Of a stretch of 62,960 bases of DNA, positions 10,338 to 16,600 are shown piece after piece. Source of the DNA: a virus (Duplodnaviria > Heunggongvirae > Uroviricota > Caudoviricetes); the IMG/VR virus record IMGVR_UViG_3300021255_000060, positions 1 through 62,960 of that record. One strand, 5' to 3'. Position 1 is the stretch's first letter. Each line of letters starts with the position of its first letter. Under the pieces are notes generated by a model that saw only the letters and a list, made by a program, of their open reading frames with translations, was not told where the DNA came from and searched no databases. The position numbers and the translations under genes were made by a program.

Positions 10338-11598
10338 CACAGAACCATTAAGAAGCACGGCAAATGGTGCCGCTGGTGTAAGAAATAAAACTCCGATTGC
10401 AGGTCTTGATCCTAGAAGTTTTTTACAAAAAACAGCACAAAAACAATTAAGTGATCAGATTCGATTAAATGGTCAGCTTGCTAAAAGGCCTGATTCAGAA
10501 CCTGCTGGTATAGATGCAAGTGAAACTGCACAAGGTGGTAATTTTTCTTCATTTATGAATGGAGCAGGAAAATATGCAGCAAAAGGTATTGGTGCAGTTG
10601 GAAGTGCAATGTCATCAATGAATGATACGGTTAGTGAACAGTCATTAGCAATGCGTAATGGTATTTCAGATGCGGCAATTAATTCTGGAAATCCTATTGC
10701 TATGGCAATTGGTGCAGCTGCGAAAGTTGTGGATGCTATTGGTGATGCTACTGGTTTTCACATTGATGATCTTGATAAGGATGCAGCTAAAGATGCTGGA
10801 GTATCTGGTGGAGCAGCATTCTTAAATAATGCAATGAACGCATTACCTGGTAATAGTTTATTAATGGCTGCATTTTCTCCTGGAAAAACCAAAGAATCTA
10901 AATCTCTTAGTGAAGAAGGTGAAGCAATCGAATCTGGATATACTGGTGTTGCATCAGACATACAATCTGCAGGAAAATTATCTGGAAAACGCACTCTGTT
11001 TGGAATTGGAAGAAATAAAATCAATAGGTTCATTGATGATACTAATAGAAAAGTTGATTTAATGAATGAAATTGGACATACTAATGCACTTAGAAAATCA
11101 TCTAATTATGGTGTTGATTTAGCACAACAAAATTTAAATCGTTATGCTGGAACTAATTATATGATGAATGCTGTTGGAAGAAACGGAATGAAATTAATTG
11201 ATTTAGATACAGCAAGATACATATTAGAAAAAAGGAAAAGTGTAGAAAAATTCCAAAAAGGTGGTACTATTGGAATAGATACAAATGTTCTTCCAGAAGG
11301 TAGTTTACATGCAAGATTAAATCATTTATCTGATATAAATCCAGATCTCGAAGAAGCTACTAAAAAAGGTATTCCTGTAATGGCTGGTGAACAAGGGGGA
11401 GAACTATCTCAAGTTGCAGAAATAGAACATTCTGAATTAATTCTTAGATTAGAAGTAACACAGAAAATTGAAGAATTAATGAAAGATGGGTCTGATGAAG
11501 CAATGATTGAGGCTGGAAAACTTTTATGCACAGAAATTATTGATAATACGCAAGATAATATGGGACAAATAACAGAGGAGGTGGAAGATGGCAAGTAA
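10330..11598 (+). CDS. Virion cargo protein (crAss cargo C1-like), Ala/Gly-rich
   Basis: 422 aa. C-terminal NVLPEGSLHARLNHL..TKKGIPV..QVAEIEHSELILR as in crAss proteins downstream of Tstab. Contains KFQKGG. Confidence 0.65.
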   Translation: MPNTEPLRSTANGAAGVRNKTPIAGLDPRSFLQKTAQKQLSDQIRLNGQLAKRPDSEPAGIDASETAQGGNFSSFMNGAGKYAAKGIGAVGSAMSSMNDTVSEQSLAMRNGISDAAINSGNPIAMAIGAAAKVVDAIGDATGFHIDDLDKDAAKDAGVSGGAAFLNNAMNALPGNSLLMAAFSPGKTKESKSLSEEGEAIESGYTGVASDIQSAGKLSGKRTLFGIGRNKINRFIDDTNRKVDLMNEIGHTNALRKSSNYGVDLAQQNLNRYAGTNYMMNAVGRNGMKLIDLDTARYILEKRKSVEKFQKGGTIGIDTNVLPEGSLHARLNHLSDINPDLEEATKKGIPVMAGEQGGELSQVAEIEHSELILRLEVTQKIEELMKDGSDEAMIEAGKLLCTEIIDNTQDNMGQITEEVEDGK

Positions 11599-12607
11599 AG
11601 CAAATTTAAATATAGCTTTGGCTATTTTATATGATTTAACTAATAATCCATCAAATAAAGCTGGATCTACTGCTGCAATTGCAGAAGCCAATATAAAAAG
11701 AGATGGATTGGATAAAAACGACATCAATGAAATTGCTGCAAATTCCACTCTTGATCAAATTGCAACACCAATAGAAAAAGTGCAATTTAATTTTGGCAGT
11801 AACCCAGGATTAATAAAGGATATTTCTGATTGGGCTGGATTTGATGTAACTCCTGTTATTTATAAAGGTTCTGTGCAAGACATAAGAGAAATGTTATCTG
11901 AATATCTACAAGCAAATAATGTAGATATTCCAAAGATAAACTCTTTTGGAGAAGGTGGGCAATTTGAGTCCAATTTAGATGTAGTAAACGTTAAAATCGG
12001 AAATAAAACATATAAATTATTATATCTATTGTCCGAAGAACAAAAAGAAACCGGATTAAAGAATGTTGAAGATATGGAGTCTGATGAAGGCGCATTATTT
12101 GATTATTCTGATAATCCACAAGAACATCTATCTTTTTGGATGAAAGATACTACTATTGGATTAAAAATTCTTTTTGTAAATAAAGACGGAGTTGTTATAT
12201 CTGTTCATAAAGGAAAACCATTATCGGAAGAACTAATAATAGAAGAATCTGAACCAATTTATTGAGTTATAGAAATAAATGATTCTGAAGATGTAACACA
12301 AGGGACTTATACAAATCTTGCATTATATAAAGAATCCGATGCTGAAGTAGAAGAGGAAGAGTCCGATGAAGACGAGCATCCAGAAATAAAAGTAAAAAAC
12401 CTGTACATCTATGGTTCAGATGGACAGGTTCAAGCAACACTCCAAGGTGGAGAAAGAATTTTTAGTCGTAAAGCAACTAAAACAATTATTAAGAAGGCTA
12501 AACGTGCATATCTTTCACATTTAGACAAAGATTATAAATCACTTGGTAGATATGTGTTTAATGAAATTAAAGCACAAGATAATAGACCTGCAGAATATAC
12601 AGAATAA
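11588..12607 (+). CDS. DUF192-domain protein (1 TGA=Trp)
   Basis: ETGLKNVEDMESDEGALFDY..SFWMKDTTIGLKILFVNKDGVVISVHKGKP is a DUF192 signature. The frame continues past TGA 12263 to TAA 12605-12607 (LQGGERIFSRKAT..LGRYVF). Confidence 0.75.
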
Positions 12608-12609
12608 TT

Positions 12610-13005
12610 ATGAATGATTTAAAAGTTATATATAACAAAATAATTGAGGGTAAAGGAGGAAGTGATTTTCCTTATGAATATGAAATAGTCCCTGATTTTA
12701 GTATAACCATTAATCCAGAAGATTGGATTGTTAATAGTGGTGAAACCAAAGTAATCGAATCCAGGTCTGTATTTACACTTGGTGATTGAGATTATAGAAT
12801 TTGGAAATGTAATGACGTTGAAACGTTTAATACATCTGAAGCTAATGTAGTTGTTCATAAAGGTAGCGATTATTACACTGTCAATGTGGCTATTTTTAGT
12901 AACGAAATACGTTTTAGAATTAATGCAGAAATTAATCCCAATAATATGGGTACTGTCGTATTTAATTTTACAAAACTAATAGCTATTGGAAACGACAAAC
13001 AATAA
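12610..13005 (+). CDS. Hypothetical protein, 131 aa (1 TGA=Trp); not in the ORF track
   Basis: ATG 12610, MNDLKVIYNKIIEGKGG..FTLGD(W)DYRIWK.., ending TAA 13003-13005. Starts 2 nt after the previous stop. Confidence 0.6.
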
Positions 13006-13018
13006 TAGTAGCGTATAA

Positions 13019-13056
13019 ATAAAAAGTCCTCCTATCTTGTTAGACGGGAGGACTAA
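13019..13056 (-). terminator. Minus-strand intrinsic terminator
   Basis: agtcctcc/ggaggact stem at 13025-13054. The T-run lies only on the minus strand (plus-strand A-run at 13019-13025). Confidence 0.75.
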
Positions 13057-13131
13057 AATGTAGAACTGATTCAGATAATTGTAGTTAGTGTAGTACCATA
13101 TGGTCGTTCACACTCTTTGTCTAATCGTTCT
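13019..13131 (-). ncRNA. Candidate ~113-nt small RNA
   Basis: Bounded by a consensus Bacteroidota promoter and a terminator. No ORF longer than 4 codons from its ATG. The 5' end forms a long irregular hairpin. Confidence 0.5.
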
Positions 13132-13136
13132 GTTTG

Positions 13137-13167
13137 CAAATTTAACAAAAATATATAACAGTACAAA
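13137..13167 (-). promoter_or_regulatory. Bacteroidota sigmaA-type promoter (minus strand)
   Basis: TTTG (13167-13164), 19 nt, TAAATTTG (13144-13137). Exact match to TTTG-N19-21-TAnnTTTG. Confidence 0.75.
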
Positions 13168-13192
13168 ATCTGTATTTTATTATTAATCAAAT

Positions 13193-13223
13193 TTTGATTT
13201 GTAAATTTATTTTACTATATTTG
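13193..13223 (+). promoter_or_regulatory. Bacteroidota sigmaA-type promoter for the cargo/vRNAP genes
   Basis: TTTG (13193-13196), 19 nt, TATATTTG (13216-13223), about 60 nt upstream of ATG 13285. Confidence 0.8.
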
Positions 13224-13284
13224 CGATTGATTAATAGGAAAATAAGAGATATATTTATATAAACAATTTAAAATAGTTAACTAT

Positions 13285-13581
13285 ATGAAGTTTAGAAAAT
13301 TTCAAGCTGGTGGTCCTATGGTGGCCGAAGATCCTAATGCAATGGCAGCTGGTGCTCCAGTAGAAGAAGGAATGGCTCCTGAAGCTGGTGCTCAGGGTGG
13401 TGGTGAAGATCCTCTCATGCAGATTGCACAAATTTTTGCACAAGGTTTACAAACTCAAGATTGTAATCTTTTAGCACAAGGTGCTCAAGCTTTCTTGGAA
13501 ATGCTTCAGCAAACAATGAGTGCAGAACAAGGTCAACCGGTATTTAAGAAAGGTGGTAAACTTGTTAGACGTGTACGCTAA
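13285..13581 (+). CDS. Small Ala/Gly/Gln-rich crAss virion-associated protein
   Basis: 98 aa, MKFRKFQAGG..VFKKGGKLVRRVR. High-expression codons. Has its own promoter and terminator. Confidence 0.75.
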   Translation: MKFRKFQAGGPMVAEDPNAMAAGAPVEEGMAPEAGAQGGGEDPLMQIAQIFAQGLQTQDCNLLAQGAQAFLEMLQQTMSAEQGQPVFKKGGKLVRRVR

Positions 13582-13602
13582 CATTTAGATTTTAGAAACT
13601 TG

Positions 13603-13635
13603 ACTCGGGATTGGGACACTCAGTCCCGAGTTTTT
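13603..13635 (+). terminator. Intrinsic terminator
   Basis: actcgggattg-ggacact-cagtcccgagt stem followed by a T-run. Confidence 0.85.
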
Positions 13636-13648
13636 AATTAATAATTAC

Positions 13649-16600
13649 ATGAGTCAAGTTAAAAAATTTCAAACTGGTGGTAGTCTTACAATTGATGGAA
13701 AGAAATATGATGTTACCCCAGAACTAATACAGAATTTATCTGGATATTTATCTAGCTATGGAGATACAGCTGCACCACTTGCAGGGTTAACCTCTGCCTT
13801 ACAACGTGGTGCAAATGTGGTATATGATTCCGTCGGAAACACCATTACTGGAATGGATGGACAGTGAGCTGGAGTTGACGAGAAAGGTGAATCTAAATAT
13901 GATGCAAATCGTAGCCAATGAAGAAAAAATTGAGATGCCACATTTAATAATGACGCACATAAGTGAAGAAAGTCATTACGGCTTTTATCTGGTTTTGCTG
14001 GATATGGCTTAAGTGGAAACAATCCACAAACTGATGCATTAGATAACATTTTTGGCAATGAAACATGGTTTGATTATATAACCAATGAAGATGGAACAAA
14101 AACATATTCTAAAGATTCAGCTAAGAACGCTTTAATTAAACAACGTCTAGAGAAATGGTCAAAGGGTCTTCCAATGACAGAAGAAGATTTTAAAAAGACT
14201 TATTCTCTTGATAGTTGGTATACACCAGATAAAGTTGCTGGTATTCGAGCTATATATGGAAATTATGCTACTCCAGAACAATGGCAAGCGAGAATTGCGG
14301 AAATTGAAGAACGTGCTCAAAATAATACATTAAGACCAGAAGATAAACAACTTCTTGCTGCATTTAATATTGTTGAAGGCGCAAATCCAAATGCTGCTAC
14401 AGATGCAGAAGCAAATAAAAATAAAAAACGTTTTACTGACGCAGGGTTTGACTATGATAAATGAAGCCCATATCTTACATGAAATGATGCTGGATATTTT
14501 AACTTAAATGATGATGCACTGGAAGAATTTCATGGAGCATTTGGAGGAAATGGTAATTATTGGTTTAATGATGCTTTTCAAAATTCTGCAAAATATAATC
14601 CTACTGGGCAATGAGATTTCCTAAATGGACATTTTGTGCTTGGTAATAGAATCTATAAACAATCTGATGCATCTGATCCAATGTCAGATTTAAGTAAAAT
14701 ATTACGCAGACAAGGTGGATTTAGAGACTTAAATGCTGCTATGCAACACAATGCTGCAAATGACTTAATTGAGCAATTATGAGGAAATGAAGTTGGATGA
14801 AATGCTCCTGATGGAAAATATTATAGCAATTGACTTGATCCTAATGGTAATCGTTATTATCGCGCAGTTACTGGAGAGTATAATTGAACTGGTAAAAATG
14901 GAAATCAGCAACTGATTAGTTGAGTTGATGCGAACCCAGAATTAGCTGATGAATTTGGTTATTATAATCCTCATTTTCAAATAACAGACGAATGGGGCAA
15001 TAGAGATTTAAGTGCACCAGAAATGGAAACTGTTCCAGGATTAGTTAAATTAGGAAAGAAAGATGTTAAACCATCAAAATTTGATCGTAGAGAACTTTAT
15101 TTTTCAGATTCTGGAAACTCTGAATTTGATGGTAGATATATTGTTGGAGACGCTGTTGACGAAGACGGCAAAGTTACTGGAGCAGCATTTTGAATAAATC
15201 CTAATAATCCTAATGCTGAATGATTGTTTGAATCATCTAAATTAAACGACTATGTTGAGGGAATGGAAGGAAACGCAGTTAGAATTCCAAAATCAATGTC
15301 TAATATATTAGCGCAAAATCCTCAATTTATGACTGTATTTCAAAATAATCCGGAGTTGAGAGATAGATTTGTTAGATTAATTGCAGGTTCTATTGCTAGT
15401 GCATGAAACGCTGGTGTTGAAAATAGTACCGTAACTGCTAAAGAATGAGAATCGTTTGGTTTTACTAAAGAACAAGCGGCTCAATTAGCAAAAGAGTCTG
15501 ATAAATTATCTGAAAGAAAACGATTGTTTGCTAGACCAAGAACAATAAGACGTCAAGAAAGAGTTGTATCTAAACCGCAACTTCATAAAACTGGAGGAAA
15601 AGTACAGAAAGCTGCAATGGGCGATATGCTTGGAAGTAAAAATGACGTTGGTGCTGCAGTAACTCAAATAAAAACGGATAAACCAATTAAAGATACTGCA
15701 CATTTCAAAAATATTGGTGACGGCGAAAAAATGCAAAAGGAAGATTGGTGAGAACTTGGTGCTTTAGTTGGGGACGCTGCTTCTTTAGGACTCGCATTTG
15801 TTCCAGGTGCAGGGGCATTATCTGGTATTGCTGGTATTGCTGGATCTACAGCAGGATTTAAAGCTGATGTTAAGAGAGATGGTTTTCAAATGGGAGATCT
15901 TGGAAACTATTTACTTAATATTGGATTGGATTCTACAGCATTTATTGGTGCCGGTGGTTTAGGTAAGACTGCTAAAGTTCTTAGAAGTCTCAAACGATCT
16001 GGAAAAGTAATAAATAAAATAATGAAAGCCGCTGCCGTATATGGTATTAGTAATGCAGCAGTTGATTCATGAAAAAAGATTCAAAATGGAGAAGGTTGAA
16101 GCATTCGTGACGTTAGAAATGTAGTAAACGCTCTCGGTGGAGCAGTTCATATGTCTAGAACTGGAATTAAAAAACCAGTTAAAGGTAAAAATTCAGTTGA
16201 ATATCCAACCATTAATTTAAAAGACGGTAAACAAGGTAACTCTATACAATTATCTGAATCTGAATTTAATGCAATACAAGCTGGAAATCCAAAAGATAAA
16301 GGAGAACTAGCTGAGATTTTAGCTGGGATTCAGAACAAACGTAGACCTGCAAATACACCAGAAATTACTAAAGAACAAATCATTGATAATTATGATTTAG
16401 ATGAATTTGTAAAAACTAGAAAACGTTTTGGTTTATTTGGTAAAGATGTATTTAAAATAAAAGGATTGGATGCAAAGAAAAAGAAAGGAAAATGGTCTTG
16501 AGAACTAATTGGTAAAGATCCTACTAAAAAACAAGCAAGAGAAGATTATCTTGCAATACTTAATGGACAACGTAGAGTTAAAAATCCTTCAAAAACAATT

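What the first reader, a model, noticed from the sequence alone, without database searches (positions are those of the whole stretch)
13019..13167. Hidden antisense-oriented small-RNA gene inside the late operon
Seen on the minus strand: a consensus promoter (TTTG-N19-TAAATTTG, 13167-13137) and, about 110 nt downstream, a terminator whose U-tract exists only on this strand. The only ATG gives MVLH-stop. The predicted start (~13131, AGAAC) is exactly the base of a hairpin: AGAAC-GAUU-AGA pairs with UCU-g-AAUC-a-GUUCU and encloses AGUGU/ACACU and ACC/GGU stems around an internal bubble. UUAGAC in the 5' arm is also complementary to GUCUAA in the terminator loop, a possible alternative fold. Inference: a host-RNAP-transcribed phage sRNA (protein decoy or 6S-like mimic, antisense regulator, or factor in the code switch). 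I do not recognise it as a known family.
Basis: partly seen in the sequence, partly recalled or inferred. Interest (0 to 1): 0.75.

Follow-up and report, generated by a model that had tools for sequence, protein, structure and literature searches.

The report
Conserved small RNA gene in crAss-like phages
A backwards-facing gene for a folded RNA of about 110 bases, with its own host-type promoter and terminator, sits among the virion genes of a 168-kb crAss-like phage and is kept at that spot across a whole clade, so it is very likely a real new phage small RNA, though its job is unknown.

Summary
On the minus strand, 13167-13021 contains a Bacteroidota-type promoter (TTTG-N19-TAAATTTG), a 70-nt folded core (P1-P2-P3) that begins at the predicted +1 (13131), and a hairpin with a U-tract on that strand only.

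Comparative evidence makes it a gene:
- 22 distinct versions occur in the same slot and orientation, between a DUF192 gene and a ~100-aa gene, in every TGA-recoded or standard-code relative examined.
- All 22 keep TAnnTTTG, and 21 have a one-way terminator.
- In class I, 10 of 20 base pairs show compensatory changes.
- G.U versus A.C cells (38:10) favour the minus strand.
- No ORF is conserved, and there is no Rfam, tRNA, 6S or Y-RNA match.

The TAG-recoded sister clade lacks the RNA (0 of 10 loci), but this is a single phylogenetic split. An opal-suppressor tRNA elsewhere in the genome already explains the recoding.

Expression could not be tested; the RNA-run contigs cover only the neighbouring gene. 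Function is unknown. My best guess is a stable riboregulator made by host RNA polymerase and acting in trans.

The scan met this family before on other DNA (note e1-5398165, the genome of my locus L019). New here are the four sequence classes in one slot and the absence from the TAG clade.

The parts
13164..13167 (-). -33 element TTTG of the small-RNA promoter
   Evidence: Pattern match. TTTG lies 19-20 nt upstream of the -7 box in 19 of 22 distinct homologous units.
13137..13144 (-). -7 box TAAATTTG (Bacteroidota sigma-A type, TAnnTTTG)
   Evidence: All 22 distinct units keep TA..TTTG while the two middle bases vary among six dinucleotides. The consensus is as given in PMC7366714.
13131..13131 (-). 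Predicted transcription start (+/-2 nt), first base of helix P1
   Evidence: Inferred from the promoter geometry. P1 begins 5-6 nt after the -7 box in nearly all units. It has not been mapped experimentally.
13062..13131 (-). 70-nt structured core. P1 = 13131-13120 paired with 13075-13062. P2 = 13114-13109 with 13092-13087. P3 = 13104-13102 with 13097-13095.
   Evidence: Fold. Model R1 scores it at 89 bits. In 10 class-I sequences 93% of cells are paired, 10 of 20 pairs show compensatory change, and slid controls reach at most 47%.
13021..13054 (-). Intrinsic terminator: hairpin 13054-13025 followed by a U-run ending at 13021 (then A-UUU-A-U)
   Evidence: hairpin dG -15.5 kcal/mol. A U-tract on this strand only is seen in 21 of 22 distinct units, and relatives use unrelated hairpin sequences at the same place. 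The U-run ends 16 nt from the stop codon of the upstream + strand ORF (13003-13005).
13193..13223 (+). Context: divergent promoter of the neighbouring 98-aa gene (13285-13581), back to back with the RNA promoter
   Evidence: Its -7 box is invariant in alignment A1. RNA-run contigs cover 13282-13635 and end at the + strand terminator 13602-13632.

Best explanation
This is a genuine, independently transcribed, non-coding small-RNA gene of a TGA-recoded crAss-like phage.

How it is made (inferred): host Bacteroidota sigma-A RNA polymerase starts at about 13131 on the minus strand and stops at the intrinsic terminator near 13021. That gives an RNA of about 110 nt.

Structure: the 5' end is locked in a conserved, bulged closing helix (P1). 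P1 encloses A/U-rich single-stranded joiners and a P2-P3 hairpin.

Distribution: the gene is single-copy, phage-specific and vertically inherited. It occupies a fixed slot between the DUF192 gene and the ~100-aa gene across a clade of 145-177-kb phages. There it occurs in at least four sequence classes that share one architecture.

What is shown and what is inferred:
- Shown by sequence comparison: promoter, structure, terminator, strand, lack of an ORF, and distribution.
- Inferred only: that it is expressed, and what it does.

Most likely mechanism: a stable riboregulator acting in trans. It would bind a protein or RNA partner through the sequence-conserved P1 helix and joiners during infection. 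I put about 0.4 on this mechanism, against about 0.8-0.85 that it is a real RNA gene. It is probably not a classical antisense RNA against a coding region. The confidence given for this entry (0.7) is for the statement as a whole, weighted towards the gene claim.
For: - Promoter: a strict match in the window. All 22 distinct homologous units keep TAnnTTTG with variable middle bases, and 19 have TTTG 19-20 nt upstream. This motif precedes 81% of primary start sites in B. thetaiotaomicron (PMC7366714). Middle and late genes of a crAss-like phage are transcribed by host RNAP (bioRxiv 10.1101/2020.03.07.982082).
- Structure: z = -3.9. A MAFFT alignment of 5 variants gives 93% paired cells and 5 compensatory pairs. 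Ten class-I sequences give 10 of 20 pairs with changes on both sides (0 of 500 shuffles reach this) and at most 47% pairing in slid controls. Class II shows 8 compensatory pairs on its own. Representatives of all classes fold alike, with z from -2.9 to -5.1.
- Strand: G.U versus A.C cells are 14:4 in class I and 24:6 in class II. The U-tract is on this strand only in 21 of 22 units.
- Terminator: the hairpin sequence is replaced by unrelated hairpins while its position and U-tract are kept.
- Non-coding: no ORF is conserved on either strand.
- Distribution: 23 of 23 non-TAG syntenic loci have a unit. The classes follow the phage tree. The RNA core is 63-79% identical to the window's, against 56-60% for the adjacent coding DNA and 37% amino-acid identity for the neighbouring large protein. 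It is single-copy in its own genome and has no copy in about 186,000 prokaryotic species genomes.
Against: - There is no direct evidence of transcription. The run search for the RNA alone listed no RNA holder, and the contigs laid cannot show a 110-nt RNA.
- The start site is inferred from the motif only.
- The covariation rests on 10 class-I and 7 class-II related sequences, and the class-I alignment A4 was fitted to the model.
- Homology between the sequence classes is not demonstrable. Models R1 and R2 do not cross-detect each other's classes, so 'one family' is established for class I only.
- For the trans-acting mechanism, no target or partner was identified. The most conserved bases are paired in P1, which is atypical for seed-type base-pairing sRNAs.
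Confidence: 0.7

Rival explanations
1. It is a cis-antisense or transcriptional-interference module. The unit fires against the late operon. Its RNA pairs perfectly with any + strand read-through transcript between the DUF192 (or 131-aa) gene and the ~100-aa gene. That would trigger RNase III cleavage or polymerase collision, uncoupling the strongly expressed ~100-aa gene and the cargo genes from the upstream operon, in the manner of lambda OOP.
For: - The unit is antisense within a co-directional gene block.
- No + strand terminator lies upstream of it, because the hairpin has no U-tract on the + strand.
- The neighbouring gene has its own promoter and terminator and appears as a separate stretch in RNA contigs.
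- A cis-antisense RNA always matches its target, so free sequence drift between classes would be tolerated.
Against: - The RNA overlaps no coding sequence; there is a 16-nt gap to the upstream stop codon.
- TAG-clade relatives do without it at the same junction.
- Strong sequence conservation of P1 within class I, and conserved structure, go beyond what a pure collision or duplex mechanism needs.
- Whether a sense transcript crosses the region is unknown.
Confidence: 0.2
2. It is a protein decoy or ribonucleoprotein component. Candidates are a 6S-like RNA polymerase mimic, a Y-RNA-like ligand of a host Ro/TROVE protein, a decoy for an RNA-targeting defence, or a helper of TGA recoding (for example acting against RF2).
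For: - The architecture suits protein binding: the 5' and 3' parts form a sequence-conserved, bulged helix that closes an internal loop.
- The RNA is present in all non-TAG loci and absent from the TAG sister clade.
- Bacteroides encodes a TROVE protein (control), and crAss001 encodes one (PMC8375218).
- The phage encodes no release factor of its own.
Against: - No 6S, Y RNA or other Rfam model matches, even at E up to 10 or 1.
- A 70-nt core is far shorter than 6S RNA.
- No TROVE gene is found in six complete RNA-bearing phage genomes.
- The recoding is explained by a phage tRNA with anticodon UCA.
- A standard-code relative also has a slot RNA, and the link with recoding type is one split on the tree.
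Confidence: 0.12
3. It is not an RNA gene. It is instead a DNA-level element or a structure in the + strand transcript, such as a 3' UTR stabiliser or terminator of the upstream operon, and the promoter match is fortuitous.
For: - The helices could also form on the + strand RNA or in single-stranded DNA.
- The region is AT-rich, where promoter-like words are common (the sigma-70-type scan is below expectation, and the strict motif occurs 3 times by chance per window).
Against: - G.U versus A.C cells (38:10) favour the minus strand.
- The U-tract is on the minus strand only in 21 of 22 units.
- TAnnTTTG is kept in all 22 units at a fixed 5-6 nt from P1 while its middle bases vary.
Confidence: 0.05
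4. It encodes a small protein on one of the two strands.
For: Short ORFs exist in some members, for example 28 aa on the + strand of the window.
Against: - No ORF is conserved in position or frame.
- Several members have none on one or both strands (L026, L044, L035).
- Substitutions are compensatory across helices rather than codon-patterned.
Confidence: 0.01

Closest known systems
Canonical intergenic sRNA genes of Bacteroides, e.g. GibS (Ryan et al. 2020, PMC7366714)
   Same: Both have a sigma-ABfr-type promoter (TAnnTTTG at -7, TTTG at -33), a length of about 100-150 nt, a Rho-independent terminator and no ORF. These are the criteria that paper uses for high-confidence sRNAs.
   Different: This RNA is phage-encoded, not chromosomal. 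It has no sequence or Rfam relationship. GibS has a long single-stranded 5' seed, whereas here the 5' end is paired from +1 and the best-conserved bases lie in a helix.
Lambda OOP RNA and similar phage antisense RNAs (P22 sar, P1/P7 c4); from my own knowledge
   Same: It is a short RNA with its own promoter and intrinsic terminator, oriented against the surrounding phage operon.
   Different: OOP overlaps the 3' end of cII and acts on that mRNA. This RNA overlaps no ORF. No cognate-specific pairing to the neighbouring genes was found, and a sense transcript across the site is unproven.
Abundant intergenic non-coding RNAs of the crAss-like Cellulophaga phage phi14:2 (bioRxiv 10.1101/2020.03.07.982082)
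   Same: These are non-coding transcripts of unknown function in a crAss-like phage, a group whose middle and late genes are transcribed by host RNAP.
   Different: Those are long RNAs from the early region (g004-g006 junctions), present from the earliest time point. No defined structure or conservation was reported in the text I read. This one is a ~110-nt structured RNA in the virion/cargo module of a distant clade.
6S RNA (Rfam RF00013, RF01685)
   Different: No model matches. The core is 70 nt against about 180 nt, and the loop is small and asymmetric (about 5 and 11 nt in this phage). Membership is rejected.
Y RNAs bound by Ro/TROVE proteins; from my own knowledge, with the TROVE protein in crAss001 from PMC8375218
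   Same: The 5' and 3' parts pair into a sequence-conserved helix with bulged bases, enclosing loops or a hairpin.
   Different: No Rfam Y RNA or YrlA match. No TROVE gene in six complete RNA-bearing phage genomes. The helix sequence is unrelated to the Ro-binding consensus as I recall it. This is a resemblance only.

Membership tests
Bacteroidota-type intergenic sRNA gene (promoter + terminator + non-coding) | Sigma-ABfr promoter: TAnnTTTG at -7, TTTG near -33 | tested here: met
   window; 22 of 22 units have the -7 box, 19 of 22 have TTTG at 19-20 nt.
Bacteroidota-type intergenic sRNA gene (promoter + terminator + non-coding) | Rho-independent terminator at the 3' end, on the RNA strand | tested here: met
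   (hairpin dG from -10.9 to -20.8 kcal/mol, U-run of 4-7; one-way in 21 of 22 units).
Bacteroidota-type intergenic sRNA gene (promoter + terminator + non-coding) | No conserved ORF | tested here: met
Bacteroidota-type intergenic sRNA gene (promoter + terminator + non-coding) | Detected transcript with mapped 5' and 3' ends | not testable with these tools
   Only assembled contigs of RNA runs were available, and they cannot show a 110-nt RNA or its ends.
Structured RNA family (conserved secondary structure) | Base pairs maintained by compensatory changes | tested here: met
   Class I has 10 of 20 pairs compensatory; class II has 8 of 35.
6S RNA | Match to Rfam 6S models; about 180 nt with a large central bubble | tested here: not met
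   Searches give no match. The core is 70 nt.
Y RNA / Ro RNP | Match to Rfam Y RNA models | tested here: not met
Y RNA / Ro RNP | Co-encoded Ro/TROVE protein | tested here: not met
   PF05731 is absent from G000 and five other complete RNA-bearing genomes. Host Ro could not be tested because the host is unknown.
cis-antisense RNA of the OOP type | Overlap with the coding region of an opposite-strand gene | tested here: not met
   The RNA ends at about 13021 and the upstream ORF stops at 13005.
cis-antisense RNA of the OOP type | A sense transcript crossing the RNA gene | not testable with these tools
   Contigs cannot show absence or strand.
tRNA / tmRNA (including suppressor tRNA) | Cloverleaf recognised by ARAGORN | tested here: not met
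   One search finds none in the window. The 18 tRNAs, including anticodon UCA, lie at 79.6-107 kb.
Repeat-based RNA elements (DGR template, CRISPR-like, type III antitoxin) | A second related copy or tandem repeats | tested here: not met
   Single copy. The weak CRISPR-DR66 hit (E = 1) falls on the terminator hairpin, which is not conserved.

The most novel reading that the evidence does not exclude
The slot holds a fast-diversifying riboregulator that the non-TAG lineage of these large crAss-like phages specifically needs for host takeover. It could be a decoy that captures a host RNA-binding protein (Ro/TROVE, an RNA-targeting defence nuclease or RNA polymerase), or an RNA that lowers host RF2 so that TGA can be read as Trp. 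On this reading the sequence classes reflect adaptation to different hosts.
Probability: 0.1. Interest if true: 0.85.

Novelty: new member of a known kind. Interest (0 to 1): 0.6.

Why it matters
crAss-like phages are among the most abundant gut viruses, yet apart from tRNAs almost nothing is known about their non-coding RNAs. I found no paper describing a conserved small RNA in them, and the RNA matches nothing in Rfam 15.

This RNA is kept at one genomic slot across a deep clade whose neighbouring proteins are down to 37% identical. It has a near-consensus host promoter, so it is probably made in quantity by the host's own polymerase.

It gives a concrete, cheap target for experiments on how these phages manipulate Bacteroidota cells or time their virion-gene expression. 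It also gives annotators a covariance model for a feature that ORF-based pipelines miss, particularly in recoded genomes.

Tried and rejected
- Expression. The run search with the RNA alone listed no RNA holder. Contigs of four metatranscriptome runs laid on 12600-13700 cover only 13282-13635, the neighbouring gene. This is no evidence either way for a 110-nt RNA.
- Known families. Rfam at gathering and at loose thresholds gave nothing on the window and on 8 relatives: only chance-level CRISPR-DR66, sau-41, MIR1120 and GcvB hits, all far below their gathering scores. ARAGORN found nothing.
- Deposited phages. blastn found no match. tblastn with the DUF192 protein found only two unannotated, distant records. 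PHROGs gave no family for five neighbouring proteins.
- Alternative fold (UUAGAC with GUCUAA in the terminator loop): not conserved.
- Small ORFs on either strand: not conserved.
- Targets. Naive duplex energies against all start regions of the genome were uninformative because they allow long unrealistic loops. Cognate versus non-cognate duplexes with the start regions of the ~100-aa gene (-14.7 vs -15.1 kcal/mol) and of the large downstream gene (-19.9 vs -18.5, SD about 4) showed no cognate preference.
- A 16-nt perfect sense identity between RNA nt 49-64 and 16245-16260 (E = 0.004) recurs only in the near-identical genome, not in relatives. It is probably chance.
- Code-switch helper. A tRNA with anticodon UCA exists, the phage has no release factor, and the association with recoding type is a single split on the tree.
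- Y-RNA/Ro lead. No TROVE gene in six complete RNA-bearing genomes.
- Host copy. A degenerate class-I pattern finds nothing in the prokaryotic genome collection. The RNA is not elsewhere in three near-complete TAG-clade genomes.
- Homology between classes. Models R1 and R2 do not cross-detect; the only correctly placed cross-hit is at E = 2.4.

Full report
CONTEXT. The window is the first 62,960 nt of a complete 167,986-bp virus record with direct terminal repeats. The + strand genes from 3545 to 44865 are open only if TGA is read as Trp. The giant gene upstream of the finding carries the Pfam crAss_MUZ muzzle domain, and there are ORFs of 3247 and 3446 aa. This is therefore a large crAss-like phage with TGA recoding.

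The finding lies in a 279-nt gap (13006-13284). On one side is a 131-aa ORF (12610-13005), which follows a DUF192-domain gene (11588-12607). On the other side is a 98-aa gene (13285-13581).

THE OBSERVATION.
- Promoter. On the minus strand, TTTG-N19-TAAATTTG lies at 13167-13137. This is the Bacteroidota primary-sigma consensus, TAnnTTTG at -7 and TTTG at -33, found upstream of 81% of primary start sites in B. thetaiotaomicron (PMC7366714).
- Rarity of the motif. The strict pattern occurs 7 times in the window against 3.0 expected, and 19 times in the whole genome. Two of these matches are back to back in this gap; the other (13193-13223, + strand) serves the 98-aa gene.
- Fold. From 13131 the RNA folds as described. 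P1 pairs nt 1-12 with nt 57-70 and has two single-base bulges. P2 is 6 bp and P3 is 3 bp. A terminator hairpin (nt 78-107) is followed by U5-A-U3. The MFE is -30.9 kcal/mol and z = -3.9.
- Terminator direction. On the + strand the hairpin is followed by UAAAAUG, so it can terminate only minus-strand transcription.
- Uniqueness. Of the 19 promoter matches in the genome, this is the only one followed by a strong hairpin and U-run within 300 nt.

IS IT MORE THAN CHANCE? COMPARATIVE EVIDENCE. I found relatives in three ways: through the 131-aa ORF, through a DNA pattern built from the invariant blocks, and through a profile of the ~100-aa protein.

A MAFFT alignment of five distinct variants already showed several things:
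- TTTG and TA..TTTG are kept while the spacer and the two middle bases change.
- 93% of cells are paired, with five pairs changed on both sides.
- One G.U pair is invariant.
- The terminator hairpin is swapped for an unrelated hairpin with its U-tract kept on the same strand.

A covariance model of the 70-nt core (R1) then found further homologs in six phage contigs. All are on the minus strand, 150-250 nt upstream of the ~100-aa gene. On ten distinct class-I sequences:
- 93% of cells are paired, against at most 47% when the 3' partners are slid.
- 10 of 20 pairs show a change on both sides (0 of 500 shuffles reach this).
- P2 is 98% paired, with 4 of its 6 pairs covarying.
That alignment was fitted to the model, but it is almost gap-free and agrees with the MAFFT result.

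THE SLOT IS CONSERVED BEYOND CLASS I. The TGA-recoded loci with no R1 hit carry a different RNA at the same place and in the same orientation: a TAnnTTTG box, a different structured RNA, and a hairpin with a U-run. I call these class II (10 loci), class III (2 loci) and class IV (2 loci that appear to use the standard code).
- Class II has its own covariation, with 35 pairs of which 8 are compensatory.
- Single-sequence folds of eight representatives of all classes give the same architecture, with z from -2.9 to -5.1. That architecture is P1 starting at the predicted +1, A/U-rich joiners, P2 with an internal loop, an apical P3 and a terminator.
- Across 22 distinct units, all have the -7 box with six different middle dinucleotides, 19 have TTTG at 19-20 nt, and 21 have a U-tract only on the RNA strand.
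- G.U versus A.C cells are 14:4 in class I and 24:6 in class II. This favours the minus strand as the functional RNA.
- No ORF is conserved on either strand.

Caveat: R1 and R2 do not cross-detect each other's classes. Common descent of the classes is inferred from position, orientation and architecture, not shown by sequence.

DISTRIBUTION.
- All 23 syntenic loci that use TGA=W or the standard code have a unit. None of the 10 loci that use TAG=Q does; there the ~100-aa gene follows the DUF192 gene after 80-110 nt.
- On a tree of the large downstream protein, the TAG/no-RNA phages are one side of a single branch (support 100). Class II is monophyletic (97), and 8 of 9 class-I rows form one group (95) (quick tree).
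- The RNA is therefore inherited vertically, and its link with recoding type is a single event that cannot be separated from phylogeny.
- Three near-complete TAG-clade genomes do not carry the class-I RNA elsewhere.
- The RNA is single-copy in its own genome and absent from about 186,000 prokaryotic species genomes at the pattern level.
- The class-I core is 63-79% identical to the window's. The adjacent coding DNA is 56-60% identical, and the neighbouring large protein is 37% identical at the amino-acid level to its nearest relative. The excess conservation is real but moderate.
- The 131-aa ORF next to the RNA is present in only some class-I phages. In others the RNA directly follows the DUF192 gene. 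That ORF is therefore not part of the unit.

WHAT IT IS NOT.
- It matches no Rfam family, including 6S, Y RNA, tRNA and tmRNA.
- It is unlikely to be needed for the code switch. The genome encodes 18 tRNAs at 79.6-107 kb, including one with anticodon UCA and its own promoter match.
- The phage has no release-factor gene.
- A Y-RNA/Ro idea was prompted by the TROVE protein of crAss001 (PMC8375218) and by the bulged helix that joins the RNA's 5' end to the segment just before the terminator. It finds no TROVE gene in six complete RNA-bearing genomes. A host Ro protein cannot be excluded.

HOW IT MOST LIKELY WORKS. What the sequences show is a promoter-to-terminator unit under selection for promoter function, RNA structure and one-way termination.

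What is inferred is as follows. [quoted passage not shown] Its 5' end is sequestered in P1 and it ends in a strong terminator hairpin, a design typical of stable RNAs. Within class I the best-conserved bases lie in P1 and the joiners. This points to recognition by a partner rather than to a free seed.

I therefore favour a stable riboregulator acting in trans (about 0.4). The main rival is a cis-antisense or interference role at the junction between the upstream operon and the separately promoted ~100-aa gene (about 0.2). Specific decoy ideas together get about 0.12.

I found no support for pairing with the start regions of the neighbouring genes and no conserved complementary site in the genome.

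EXPRESSION. The search for runs holding the RNA alone listed no RNA holder. Contigs from four metatranscriptome runs of four studies (animal or bovine gut) cover only 13282-13635. That is the 98-aa gene up to its + strand terminator (13602-13632), at 95-100% identity. This shows that the phage or close kin is present in those RNA libraries. It says nothing about a 110-nt RNA.

PRIOR KNOWLEDGE. I found no paper describing conserved small RNAs in crAss-like phages. The closest report is of two abundant long non-coding intergenic RNAs of unknown function in phi14:2.

Within this scan the same family was already reported on other DNA. Note e1-5398165 shares 28 of 28 words with my locus L019, which R1 scores at 75.5 bits. 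My results agree with that note: a real new RNA, with the 6S role not supported. They add the multi-class slot, the absence from the TAG sister clade, the strand test and the suppressor-tRNA context.

VERDICT. This is a real and previously uncatalogued small-RNA gene family of a clade of large crAss-like phages. Confidence that it is an RNA gene is about 0.8-0.85. Its function is unknown and its expression is untested.

Noticed in passing
window 13193-13635 (+): The 98-aa gene (13285-13581; starts MKFRKFQAGG, ends KKGGKLVRRVR) is a self-contained unit with its own Bacteroidota-type promoter (13193-13223) and a strong terminator (13602-13632). It is the only part of 12600-13700 covered by contigs of four metatranscriptome runs from four studies. 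Homologs exist in both the TGA- and the TAG-recoded clades, with QxGG and KGG motifs invariant.
   Followed up: partly
G000:C1:79692-79763 (-) and 83959-84033 (-), outside the window: ARAGORN finds 18 tRNAs at 79.6-107 kb. One has anticodon UCA (an opal suppressor, with a promoter match at 79923-79892). A second suppressor-like tRNA has anticodon UUA, which would read TAA. That is odd for a phage that still appears to use TAA as a stop codon.
   Followed up: no
window 12610-13005 (+): The 131-aa ORF (one in-frame TGA) between the DUF192 gene and the RNA has only two related clusters among 5.8 billion proteins and no PHROG family. It is present in only some class-I phages; a 134-aa ORF with a similar N-terminus sits there in L014. 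It is a variable insertion next to the RNA gene.
   Followed up: partly
loci L016-L048 (syntenic region of 33 related phages): Two sister clades of the same phage lineage, with the same gene order here, use different stop-codon reassignments: 10 loci need TAG=Q and about 21 need TGA=W. Two loci (L035, L036) seem to need none.
   Followed up: partly
window 13068-13083 (-) and 16245-16260 (+): A 16-nt perfect identity in sense orientation links the 3' arm of the RNA and the 1520-aa gene (blastn-short E = 0.004). It recurs only in the near-identical genome, not in relatives, so it is probably chance.
   Followed up: yes
window 13185-13199: A perfect 7-bp inverted repeat (AATCAAA-T-TTTGATT) lies between the two divergent promoters and overlaps the -33 TTTG of the 98-aa gene's promoter. 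It is not palindromic in L006-L009, so it is probably not a conserved operator.
   Followed up: partly
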